Part shown: piece after piece, positions 1,410 through 4,808 of the stretch
Layout of the letters: each line of letters begins with the position of its first letter
How positions within the stretch are numbered: the stretch's first letter is position 1
Virus record (IMG/VR): IMGVR_UViG_2609460219_000006
Origin: a virus
Lineage: Duplodnaviria > Heunggongvirae > Uroviricota > Caudoviricetes
DNA: 5,655 bases
Strand: one strand, 5' to 3'
Notes under the pieces: generated by a model
What the model was told of the DNA's origin: nothing
The model's input: the letters and a program-made list of their open reading frames with translations, nothing else
Database searches by the model: none
Position numbers and translations under genes: made by a program

Positions 1410-4400
1410 ATGGGTAAAGGCAGCAGTAAGGGGCATACTCCGCGCGAAGCGAAGGACAACCTGAAGTCCACGCAGTTGCTGAGTGTGATCGATGCCATCA
1501 GCGAAGGGCCGGTTGAAGGTCCGGTGGATGGATTAAAAAGCGTGCTGCTGAACAGTACGCCAGTGCTGGACAGTGAGGGGAATACCAATATCTCCGGCGT
1601 CACGGTGGTGTTCCGGGCCGGTGAGCAGGAGCAGACACCGCCGGAGGGATTTGAATCCTCCGGCTCCGAGACGGTGCTGGGTACGGAAGTGAAATACGAC
1701 ACGCCGATCACCCGGACCATCACGTCGGCAAACATTGACCGACTGCGTTTTACCTTCGGCGTGCAGGCACTGGTGGAAACCACCTCAAAGGGGGACCGGA
1801 ATCCGTCGGAAGTCCGCCTGCTGGTTCAGATACAACGTAACGGTGGCTGGGTGACGGAAAAAGACATCACCATTAAGGGCAAAACCACGTCGCAGTATCT
1901 GGCCTCGGTGGTGGTGGATAACCTGCCGCCGCGCCCGTTTAATATCCGGATGCGCAGGATGACGCCGGACAGCAGCACAGACCAGCTGCAGAACAAAACG
2001 CTCTGGTCGTCATACACCGAAATCATCGATGTGAAACAGGGCTACCCGAACACGGCACTCGTCGGCGTGCAGGTGGATTCGGAGCAGTTCGGCAGCCAGC
2101 AGGTGAGCCGTAATTATCATCTTCGCGGGCGCATTCTGCAGGTGCCGTCGAACTATAACCCGCAGACGCGGCAATACAGCGGTATCTGGGACGGGACGTT
2201 TAAACCGGCATACAGCAACAACATGGCCTGGTGTCTGTGGGATATGCTGACCCATCCACGCTACGGCATGGGGAAACGTCTTGGTGCAGCAGATGTGGAT
2301 AAATGGGCGCTGTATGTCATCGGCCAGAATTGCGACCAGTCGGTGCCTGACGGATTTGGCGGCACGGAGCCGCGCATCACCTGTAATGCCTGGCTGACCA
2401 CACAGCGTAAGGCGTGGGATGTGCTCAGTGATTTCTGCTCGGCGATGCGCTGTATGCCGGTATGGAACGGGCAGACGCTGACGTTTGTGCAGGACCGACC
2501 GTCGGATAAGGTGTGGACCTATAACCGCAGTAATGTGGTGATGCCGGATGATGGCGCGCCGTTCCGCTACAGCTTCAGCGCCCTGAAGGACCGCCATAAT
2601 GCCGTTGAGGTGAACTGGATTGACCCGAACAACGGCTGGGAGACGGCGACAGAGCTTGTTGAAGATACGCAGGCCATTGCCCGTTACGGTCGTAATGTTA
2701 CGAAGATGGATGCCTTTGGCTGTACCTGCCGGGGGCAGGCACACCGCGCCGGGCTGTGGCTGATTAAAACGGAGCTGCTGGAGACGCAGACCGTGGATTT
2801 CAGCGTGGGTGCCGAAAGGCTTCGCCATGTGCCGGGTGATGTTATTGAAATCTGCGATGATGACTATGCGGGGATCAGCATCGGCGGGCGCGTGCTGGCG
2901 GTAAACAGCCAGACCCGGACGCTGACGCTCGACCGTGAAATCACGCTGCCATCCTCCGGTACCACGCTGATAAGCCTGGTTGACGGTCAGGGTAATCCGG
3001 TCAGCGTGGAGGTCCAGTCCGTCACCGACGGCGTGAAGGTGAAAGTGAGTCGTGTTCCTGACGGCGTTGCCGGATACAGCGTGTGGGGGCTGAAGTTGCC
3101 GACGTTGCGCCAGCGCCTGTTCCGCTGCGTGAGTATCCGTGAGAACGACGACGGCACGTATGCCATCACCGCCGTGCAGCATGTAACCGAAAAAGAAGCC
3201 ATCGTGGATAACGGGGCGCACTTTGACGGCGACCTGAGCAGCACGGTGAATGGCGTCACGCCGCCCGCGGTGCAGCACCTGACTGCCGAAGTCACCGCAG
3301 ACAGCGGGGAATATCAGGTGCTGGCGCGCTGGGACACGCCGAAGGTGGTGAAGGGGGTGAGCTTCCTGCTTCGCCTGACCGTGGCAGCGGACGATGGCAG
3401 TGAGCGGCTGGTCAGTACGGCCAGGACGACGGAAACCACATACCGCTTCACGCAACTGGCGCCAGGAAACTACAGGCTGACAGTCCGGGCGGTAAATGCG
3501 TGGGGACAGCAGGGCGATCCGGCATCGGTATCGTTCCGGATTGCCGCACCGGCAGCGCCGTCGCGGATTGAGCTGACGCCGGGCTATTTTCAGATAACCG
3601 CCACGCCGCATCTTGCCGTTTATGACCCGACGGTACAGTTTGAGTTCTGGTTCTCGGAAAAGCGGATTACCGATATCAGGCAGGTTGAAACCACAGCCCG
3701 CTATCTTGGTACGGCGCTGTACTGGATAGCCGCCAGTATCAATATCAAACCGGGCCATGATTATTACTTTTATATCCGCAGTGTGAACACCGTTGGCAAA
3801 TCGACATTCGTGGAGGCCGTCGGTCGGGCGAGCGATGATGCGGAAGGTTACCTGGATTTTTTCAAAGGCCAGATAACCGAATCCCATCTCGGCAAGGAGC
3901 TGCTGGAAAAAGTCGACCTGACGGAGGATAACGCCAGCAGACTGGAGGAGTTTTCGAAAGAGTGGAAAGACGCCAGTGATAAATGGAATGCCATGTGGGG
4001 CGTCAAAATTGAGCAGACCGAAGACGGTAAGCATTATGTCGCGGGGCTTGGCCTCAGCATGGAGGATACAGAGGAAGGCAAACTGAGCCAGTTTCTGGTT
4101 GCTGCTAACCGTATCGCGTTTATTGACCCGGCAAACGGGAATGAAACGCCGATGTTTGTGGCGCAGGGCAATCAGATATTCATGAACGACGTGTTCCTGA
4201 AGCGCCTGACGGCCCCCGCCATTACCAGCGGTGGAAATCCACCGGCATTTTCCCTGACACCGGACGGAAAGCTGACCGCTAAAAATGCGGATATCAGTGG
4301 CAGTGTGAATGCGAACGCCGGGACGCTCAACAACGTCACGATTAATGAGAACTGTCAGATTAAGGGGAAACTGTCAGCCAACCAGATTGAAGGCGATATT

Positions 4401-4808
4401 GTCAAAACGGTCAGCAAGTCTTTCCCCCGCACGAGCACTTATGCCAGCGGCACCATCACGGTAAGAATCAGTGATGATCAGAAATTTGACCGGCAGGTCA
4501 TGATACCGCCAGTGTTATTCCGCGGTGGTAAGCATGAGAGTTTCAACAGTAATAACCAACAGTCATACTGGTATTCAACCTGCCGGTTAAGAGTGACCCG
4601 CAATGGTCAGGAGATTTTTAATCAGTCCACGACGGATGCTCAGGGCGTATTTTCCTCAGTTATAGATATGCCTGCCGGACAGGGGACACTGACACTGACA
4701 TTCACCGTATCTTCATCAGGAGCGAATAACTGGACACCAACAACCAGTATCAGCGATCTGCTGGTTGTGGTGATGAAGAAATCCACAGCAGGTATCAGTA
4801 TCAGCTGA
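1410..4808 (+). CDS. J: Tail tip host specificity protein J (central tail fibre, receptor-binding protein)
   Basis: 1132-codon ORF, the length I recall for lambda gpJ. The N-terminus [34 protein letters not shown] matches my recollection of lambda J. GGAG at 1398-1401 lies 8 nt before the ATG. Two fibronectin type III-like repeats are readable at about nt 3260-3830 ([15 protein letters not shown] and [14 protein letters not shown]). The last ~500 nt are markedly more AT-rich than the rest of the gene. Confidence 0.95.

What the first reader, a model, noticed from the sequence alone, without database searches (positions are those of the whole stretch)
4030..4808. Compositional break at the 3' end of J suggests an exchanged receptor-binding module
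Hand counts of individual 60-nt lines give about 53% GC (2101-2160) and 67% GC (3061-3120) in the body of J, against about 45-47% in three lines between 4501 and 4800. The change coincides with where the stop-free antisense frame (2010-4034) ends. The C-terminal part of J is the receptor-binding domain in lambda (it binds LamB), and this end of J is a known hotspot of mosaic exchange among lambdoid phages. From memory, the last ~150 residues here (...[25 protein letters not shown]...[16 protein letters not shown]) do not look like the lambda LamB-binding domain, but I cannot verify that without an alignment. The host receptor may therefore differ from LamB.
Basis: partly seen in the sequence, partly recalled or inferred. 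Interest (0 to 1): 0.5.

Follow-up and report, generated by a model that had tools for sequence, protein, structure and literature searches.

The report
Swapped OmpC-binding tip of phage J
The last 159 residues of this prophage's tail-tip protein J are a swapped-in receptor-binding cassette that almost certainly binds the porin OmpC instead of LamB, but this cassette is already characterised, structurally solved and very common, so the finding is ordinary.

Summary
The window is the K-I-J-lom-stf tail-tip region of a lambda-like E. coli prophage, 99.6% identical to prophages in poultry isolates.

**Conclusion confirmed.** J matches lambda J almost exactly through residue 969. The last 159 residues (nt 4329-4808) are only 44% identical to lambda's.

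**Reasoning not confirmed.**
- The significant GC step is at nt 3584, not 4030.
- Lambda has the same step at the same position, inside sequence 86-100% identical to lambda.
- The antisense ORF end at 4034 is also shared with lambda.
- The true junction at about 4329 shows only a weak further GC dip (0.53 to 0.48).

**A discrete cassette.** Phages 434 and mEp460 share the J backbone and the lom allele but carry a different cassette. The O157 prophage YYZ-2008 has a divergent backbone but a 98-100% identical cassette.

**Receptor.**
- The cassette is 156/159 identical to "A8 gpJ", a natural variant that Brödel et al. (Nature 2024) fused to lambda J.
- They assayed it in lamB/ompC-deleted cells carrying plasmid-borne ompC variants.
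- PDB entry 9wcb holds A8 gpJ together with OmpC.

**Prevalence.** About 1,500 records among 5,426 complete E. coli genomes carry the cassette at 95% identity or more.

**Verdict.** Already known, low interest.

The parts
1410..4808 (+). Gene J (tip attachment / central tail fibre protein), 1132 aa, intact ORF
   Evidence: ORF. It is 89% identical overall and colinear with lambda J. Pfam domains: FNIII-A_GpJ 86-207, Phage-tail_3 330-496, Ig_J 611-714, Ig_J_second 716-818, Phage_Tail_Tip 845-972, Ig_GpJ_C 1009-1132.
3584..3584 (.). Main GC change-point inside J (0.599 to 0.507); a property of the shared backbone, not an exchange junction
   Evidence: Change-point LLR 13.5 against a codon-shuffle maximum of 6.2. 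Lambda J has its best change-point at the same position, more weakly (LLR 6.0). Identity to lambda is 86-100% on both sides.
4269..4328 (+). Conserved junction segment (encodes ...[19 protein letters not shown]), the last stretch shared by all J alleles and the probable 5' crossover site of the cassette
   Evidence: In one search even YYZ-2008 and WGPS2 rise to 88% and 83% identity here, although their upstream J is about 55-65% identical. [quoted passage not shown]
4329..4808 (+). Exchanged receptor-binding cassette (J aa 974-1132), the A8-type Ig-like RBD, inferred to bind OmpC
   Evidence: Identity to lambda drops from 98% to 40-66% at 4329. YYZ-2008 is 98-100% identical only within this block. 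Pfam Ig_GpJ_C scores E = 1.8e-37. Aa 901-1132 are 227/232 identical to PDB 9wca/9wcb 'A8 gpJ 713', with only S1009N, T1010S and S1044N inside the cassette. The A8 DNA in the paper's supplement is 97.5% identical to window 4068-4808.
4826..4853 (+). Intrinsic terminator between J and lom, lying just past the 3' edge of the cassette
   Evidence: An 8-bp stem followed by a T-run. A terminator is annotated at the equivalent place in the 434 and mEp460 records. From 4809 on, 434 and mEp460 return to 84-98% identity.

Best explanation
Window 4329-4808 encodes a modular receptor-binding domain at the C-terminus of a lambda-type tail-tip protein J. The domain is an Ig-like fold of Pfam family Ig_GpJ_C.

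The J backbone (hub domains, FNIII domains, helical shaft, beta-prism fibre; aa 1-973) is lambda's. The RBD is a different natural allele, named 'A8' in the engineering literature. It was placed there by homologous recombination: the 5' crossover used a conserved roughly 60-nt junction, and the 3' crossover lay at the end of J or in the J-lom spacer.

By inference from near-identity to A8 gpJ, three copies of this RBD at the fibre tip bind the trimeric porin OmpC rather than LamB. By analogy with the lambda J-LamB structures, binding spreads the RBD bases. That movement twists the beta-prism fibre, flips the helical shaft and opens the tail tip for DNA ejection.

Shown here: the mosaic boundaries, the domain family, near-identity to A8 gpJ, and the co-deposition of A8 gpJ with OmpC. 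Inferred: that this exact variant (S1009, T1010, S1044) uses OmpC, and that signal transmission works as in lambda.

The cassette adds only a small further drop. The other cassette alleles examined also sit at 0.46-0.50 GC, against 0.54 for lambda's.
For: - **Break position.** J is almost identical to lambda through aa 969 and diverges from aa 970-975 on. The DNA identity profile breaks at 4329.
- **Independent assortment.** 434 and mEp460 have the same backbone and the same lom but are only 34-76% identical inside 4329-4808. YYZ-2008 has a 55-81% backbone but is 98-100% identical inside the cassette.
- **Domain boundary.** The Pfam boundary falls exactly at the break: Phage_Tail_Tip ends at aa 972 and Ig_GpJ_C covers aa 1009-1132.
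- **Solved structure.** PDB 9wca/9wcb 'A8 gpJ 713' is 227/232 identical. 9wcb also contains three chains of 'Outer membrane porin C'.
- **Experiment.** Brödel et al. 2024 (PMC11338833) fused the A8 C-terminus to lambda gpJ at aa 964. They used a ΔlamB recipient to identify variants that recognise another receptor. [quoted passage not shown] A8 reached 90% of cells with both the MG1655 and the EDL933 OmpC. A later preprint states that gpJ-A8 and gpJ-1A2 recognise OmpC rather than LamB.
- **Framework.** The allele alignment shows a conserved framework with indel-bearing variable segments. This fits the four receptor-contact loops described for lambda's RBD.
- **Prevalence.** The allele occurs at 95% identity or more in 44 phage records and about 1,516 records among 5,426 complete E. 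coli genomes.
Against: - No adsorption or infection data exist for this exact sequence.
- It differs from A8 at three RBD positions (1009, 1010, 1044). These lie in the indel-rich variable segments that probably form receptor-contact loops, so OmpC-variant specificity could differ.
- I saw only the chain list of 9wcb, not its coordinates or a paper, so calling it a complex rests on co-deposition.
- The passages I read do not report an uncomplemented ΔlamB ΔompC control, so OmpC dependence rests on the authors' statement and on variant-specific delivery.
- The A8 DNA text in the supplement is machine-read and has dropped bases.
- The neighbouring lom gene carries a frameshift, so the prophage may be partly decayed and J might never be used.
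Confidence: 0.9

Rival explanations
1. One reading: the compositional break at about 4030, coinciding with the end of the antisense ORF, marks the boundary of foreign DNA brought in from a lower-GC donor. On this view the exchanged module is 4030-4808.
For: GC is lower in 4030-4808 (0.506) than in 1410-3650 (0.596). The individual line counts are correct.
Against: The significant change-point is at 3584 and is also lambda's best change-point. Segment 3585-4328 is 86-100% identical to lambda, 434 and mEp460. The antisense ORF ends at the same base in lambda. Homology breaks at 4329, not 4030.
Confidence: 0.03
2. The cassette binds a receptor other than OmpC, for example LamB or OmpF. The cause would be either the three substitutions relative to A8 or a wider receptor range of A8-type RBDs than reported.
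For: The three differences (S1009N, T1010S, S1044N) fall in hypervariable, indel-bearing segments. A few point mutations in lambda's RBD are known to add OmpF use (cited).
Against: S1009/T1010 also occur in the YYZ-2008 allele, which differs from the window at only 1 of 159 residues, so these are common polymorphisms within one allele class. A8 works on both the MG1655 and EDL933 OmpC variants, and A8, 1A2 or both deliver efficiently to 21 of 23 OmpC variants tested. Identity to the LamB-binding lambda RBD is only 43.8%.
Confidence: 0.05
3. The region is part of a decaying, non-inducible prophage. On this view the J cassette is a fossil with no current role in adsorption.
For: lom has a 1-nt deletion in a G-run that truncates it after about 64 residues. 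In the near-identical NIST0056 prophage the downstream tail fibre assembly genes are annotated as partial or frameshifted.
Against: The 1132-codon J ORF is intact, as are K and I. The lom indel could be a homopolymer sequencing error. lom is not needed for virion function (established knowledge of lambda). This rival does not change what the cassette is.
Confidence: 0.1

Closest known systems
A8 gpJ: a natural E. coli prophage J C-terminus used in engineered lambda particles (Brödel et al., Nature 2024, PMC11338833; PDB 9wca/9wcb)
   Same: Aa 901-1132 are 227/232 identical and the RBD cassette is 156/159 identical. DNA is 97.5% identical over 4068-4808. The junction to the lambda backbone is in the same place, at lambda aa 964-974.
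   Different: Three RBD substitutions (S1009N, T1010S, S1044N) and two upstream (A937T, A970S). Here the cassette sits in a natural prophage J rather than an engineered Ur-lambda chimera.
Lambda J receptor-binding domain (binds LamB; PDB 8XCJ/8XCK; Ge & Wang 2024, PMC11101478)
   Same: Same Pfam family (Ig_GpJ_C), the same length class and a conserved framework (GDIVK...FPR...DD..FDRQ...NG...DMPAG.G...KK..GIS). The backbone upstream is the same.
   Different: Only 43.8% identity in the cassette, with indels in three variable segments. The receptor is OmpC rather than LamB, by inference from A8.
Phage 434 J (the classical h434 host range; binds OmpC)
   Same: Same backbone (86-100% identical up to 4328), the same lom allele and the same receptor protein (OmpC use by 434 is cited).
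   Different: Cassette identity is only 44.6% at protein level and 34-76% at DNA level, and the 434 cassette is 5 codons longer. It is a distinct allele that reaches the same porin.
J of O157 and Stx-associated lambdoid prophages (YYZ-2008, many Stx1a/Stx2a long-tailed phages)
   Same: The cassette is 98-100% identical in DNA and 99.4% in protein.
   Different: Their J backbone is only about 55-81% identical and carries a 27-codon insertion. This shows the cassette moves between backbones.

Membership tests
Lambda-type tip attachment protein J (gpJ) | Full-length colinearity with lambda J and the gpJ domain series (FNIII-A_GpJ, Phage-tail_3, Ig_J, Ig_J_second, Phage_Tail_Tip, Ig_GpJ_C) | tested here: met
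   1132 aa against 1132 aa, 89% identity. All six Pfam domains score above their cut-offs.
Lambda-type tip attachment protein J (gpJ) | Gene order K-I-J-lom-stf in a lambdoid tail module | tested here: met
   ORFs. The whole window matches annotated K/I/J/lom/stf regions of lambdoid phages and prophages.
Ig_GpJ_C receptor-binding domain (PF12421) | Significant match to the family profile over the C-terminal roughly 125 residues | tested here: met
   E = 1.8e-37, 128.9 bits against a 26.2-bit cut-off, covering profile positions 15-135 of 135.
A8-type OmpC-binding RBD allele | Near-identity to A8 gpJ across the cassette | tested here: met
   156/159 identical in aa 974-1132 and 227/232 in aa 901-1132.
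A8-type OmpC-binding RBD allele | DNA delivery or infection depends on OmpC and not on LamB | not testable with these tools
   Reported for A8 in the literature. PDB 9wcb holds both A8 gpJ and OmpC chains. This exact variant has not been assayed.
Lambda LamB-binding RBD allele | Near-identity to lambda J aa 974-1132 | tested here: not met
   43.8% protein identity and 40-66% DNA identity.
434-type OmpC-binding RBD allele | Near-identity to the 434 J C-terminus | tested here: not met
   44.6% protein identity and 34-76% DNA identity.
N15/phi80/HK97-type J C-termini (FhuA- or LamB-using phages with other tip architectures) | Sequence similarity of the last roughly 230 residues; for N15 and phi80, downstream gp22/gp23/cor genes | tested here: not met
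   BLASTP best E-values are 0.03 (HK97), 0.46 (N15) and 0.24 (phi80). The gene downstream here is lom, not gp22/gp23/cor.

The most novel reading that the evidence does not exclude
The three substitutions relative to A8 (S1009, T1010, S1044) all lie in hypervariable, probably receptor-contacting segments. They might retune which natural OmpC variants are recognised. If so, this widespread allele class would be a naturally polymorphic series tracking OmpC diversity in E. coli populations, rather than one fixed specificity.
Probability: 0.1. Interest if true: 0.3.

Novelty: already known. Interest (0 to 1): 0.1.

Why it matters
It matters little beyond correct annotation. The lysogen's phage should be predicted to adsorb through OmpC, not LamB. 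That is relevant for host-range prediction and for choosing gpJ variants in engineered lambda particles.

The case is also a useful caution. A GC step inside a mosaic gene need not mark the recombination junction. Here the significant step belongs to the conserved backbone, and the real junction is nearly invisible in composition.

Tried and rejected
- **GC step as module boundary.** Rejected. The change-point at 3584 is shared with lambda.
- **Antisense ORF end at 4034 as a marker.** Rejected. Lambda's antisense ORF ends at the same base.
- **J cassette and lom as one exchange block.** The comparison with lambda suggested this, because the low-identity tract runs from 4329 to about 5400. Rejected. 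434 and mEp460 share the window's lom allele but not its cassette, so lambda is simply the outlier for lom.
- **Papers on the closest phages.** A search for PhiR30_1 gave 0 hits. The Nature 2026 SNIPE paper that mentions ECOR13 says nothing about J receptors.
- **A paper describing 9wca/9wcb.** Only the Ge & Wang lambda paper uses 'gpJ713', and no relevant paper appeared among the results listed for 'A8 gpJ'.
- **Rfam scan of the window.** No hits.
- **HK97, N15 and phi80 J C-termini.** No significant similarity.
- **Comparing the 1A2 chimera with natural alleles.** The machine-read DNA has dropped bases. The result (best match to the WGPS2-type allele, about 60% against 43% or less for the others) is only indicative.
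- **Tools not run.** I did not run the large protein searches or structure prediction. A solved chain at 98% identity made them unnecessary.
- **Technical note.** Loci fetched by hit id were not available to Python, so I routed sequences through DNA alignment.

Full report
**What the window is.** The 5,655-nt window carries the tail-tip genes of a lambda-like phage:
- K (62-805)
- I (703-1350)
- J (1410-4808, 1132 aa)
- a lom gene (4875-5473)
- the start of stf

It matches 272 phage records. The best is Salmonella phage SPF_0923 at 96.5%. Among complete E. coli genomes it is 99.6% identical to prophages of poultry isolates such as strain 7.1994/NIST0056. In that genome the region lies in a prophage next to sitABCD and ompN. 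Rfam finds nothing.

**Checking the observation.** GC does fall toward the 3' end. A likelihood change-point analysis places the break at nt 3584, where GC goes from 0.599 to 0.507. Its LLR is 13.5, against a maximum of 6.2 in 200 codon shuffles.

- Lambda J has its best change-point at exactly the same position, more weakly: 0.593 to 0.532, LLR 6.0.
- The window is 86-100% identical to lambda on both sides of it.
- The main compositional step therefore belongs to the shared J backbone.
- The antisense ORF 2010-4034 is real, but lambda has one ending at the same base. L001 2436-4130 equals window 2340-4034, so this is also uninformative.
- Only a weak second step exists at nt 4326: 0.527 to 0.475, LLR 1.6, p = 0.047 on 60-nt lines.

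**Where the exchange really is.**
- BLASTP against lambda J shows almost complete identity through residue 969 and about 40% identity from about residue 975 to the end, with indels.
- In DNA, identity to lambda falls from 98% in the 4269-4328 bin to 40-66% in the bins from 4329 to 4808.
- The break coincides with a Pfam domain boundary. Phage_Tail_Tip ends at aa 972 and Ig_GpJ_C, the 'C-terminal receptor binding domain', covers aa 1009-1132.

**It is a discrete cassette.** I aligned the last 1.5 kb of J plus lom from eight other phages and prophages and computed 60-nt sliding identities.

| Phage | J backbone up to 4328 | Cassette 4329-4808 | After J (lom) |
|---|---|---|---|
| lambda | 86-100% | 40-66% | 36-71% to about 5400, then about 90% |
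| 434, mEp460 | 86-100% | 34-76% | 84-98% |
| YYZ-2008 (O157 prophage) | 55-81%, with conserved islands up to 90% at 4149-4208 and 4269-4328 | 98-100% | high |
| WGPS2 | divergent | 50-86%, but 98% in the last 60 nt of J | high |

- The cassette therefore assorts independently of both flanks.
- Its apparent extension through lom when compared with lambda arises only because lambda carries a different lom allele.
- All alleles converge on a conserved stretch at 4269-4328. Even YYZ-2008 and WGPS2 reach 88% and 83% there.
- This stretch is the likely homologous-recombination site. [quoted passage not shown]

In 243 phage records the cassette's protein identity to the window falls into separated classes:
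- 95% or more in 44 records
- about 80%
- about 77%
- about 62%
- about 44-47%; 434 is at 44.6% and lambda at 43.8%

HK97, N15 and phi80 J C-termini are unrelated.

**What it binds.** A search of solved structures returned PDB 9wca/9wcb, 'A8 gpJ 713'. It is identical at 227 of 232 residues over J aa 901-1132. The differences are A937T, A970S, S1009N, T1010S and S1044N. Entry 9wcb also contains three chains of 'Outer membrane porin C'.

A8 is described in Brödel et al., Nature 2024 (PMC11338833):
- C-terminal portions of natural gpJ variants were fused to lambda gpJ at aa 964.
- A ΔlamB recipient was used to find variants that recognise another receptor.
[quoted passage not shown] - A8, 1A2 or both covered 21 of 23 OmpC variants.

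The A8 DNA printed in their supplement aligns to window 4068-4808 at 97.5% identity. The remaining gaps are single dropped bases from machine reading of the PDF. A later preprint from the same group states that gpJ-1A2 and gpJ-A8 recognise OmpC rather than LamB.

**How it most likely works.** For lambda, cryo-EM shows a trimeric Ig-like RBD whose four bottom loops insert into the LamB trimer. Binding spreads the RBD bases, twists the beta-prism fibre, flips the helical shaft, releases the FNIII strings and opens the tip.
- The window's J has the identical backbone.
- Its RBD keeps the conserved framework but differs in indel-bearing segments.
- I infer the same transmission mechanism with OmpC as the trigger. 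That step is inferred, not shown.

**Composition of the cassette.** The cassette's GC is 0.475. The 434, mEp460, 4A7 and YYZ-2008 alleles are at 0.46-0.48, WGPS2 is at 0.50 and lambda's is at 0.54. The slight extra dip is real. It is common to the non-lambda alleles examined and is far too weak to locate the junction.

**Prevalence and novelty.** The 480-nt cassette occurs at 95% identity or more in about 1,516 records among 5,426 complete E. coli genomes. It is also present in many Stx-converting phages. It is annotated, experimentally used and structurally solved. The finding is a correct identification of a known mosaic module. Nothing about it is new.

**Caveats.**
- This exact variant has not been assayed.
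- Its three RBD substitutions lie in variable segments and could tune OmpC-variant range.
- I saw only the chain list of 9wcb and found no paper describing it.
- The passages I read do not report an uncomplemented ΔlamB ΔompC control.
- The adjacent lom gene is frameshifted, so the prophage might be partly decayed.

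Noticed in passing
window 5063-5065 (lom, 4875-5473): lom carries a 1-nt deletion in a G-run (GGG here, GGGG in NIST0056, PhiR30_1 and lambda). It splits the 199-codon gene into a 65-aa ORF and a 134-aa ORF and truncates Lom after about residue 64. It is either a real pseudogene or a homopolymer sequencing error.
   Followed up: partly
window 4269-4328: A roughly 60-nt stretch is conserved across otherwise divergent J backbones: 88% with YYZ-2008 and 83% with WGPS2, against about 60% just upstream. 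It lies immediately before the variable cassette and looks like a module-boundary crossover site. A second conserved island lies at 4149-4208.
   Followed up: partly
window 501-600 (K) and 901-1100 (I): There are further mosaic patches relative to lambda. Identity drops to 78% in K and to 56-61%, with a 24-nt indel, in the middle of gene I, flanked by 87-99% identity.
   Followed up: no
window 2010-4034, minus strand: A 674-codon antisense ORF lies inside J. Lambda has a 564-codon counterpart ending at the same base. It coincides with the high-GC3 part of J (GC3 0.73) and is most simply a by-product of codon composition.
   Followed up: partly
window 4826-4845 and 5500-5521: Intrinsic-terminator-like hairpins with T-runs follow J and lom. 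They match terminators annotated in the 434 and mEp460 records, so lom sits between two terminators like a moron.
   Followed up: no
L009 (Stx2a_WGPS2) 2962-3474, compared with the supplement of PMC11338833: The second engineered OmpC-binding chimera, 1A2, appears to be a recoded copy of the WGPS2-type allele, which is about 62% identical to this window's cassette. The motif [40 protein letters not shown] is shared. The evidence is limited by machine-reading errors in the printed DNA.
   Followed up: partly
L004 (E. coli NIST0056) 1-29656: The near-identical prophage combines a head gene annotated as P22 major capsid family with a lambda-type tail tip. It ends in partial or frameshifted tail-fibre-assembly genes next to sitABCD and ompN.
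   Followed up: no
L008 (phage 4A7) 3481-5467: Phage 4A7 has an 81%-identical cassette but no lom. J is followed directly by the tail fibre gene and then by transposase genes.
   Followed up: no
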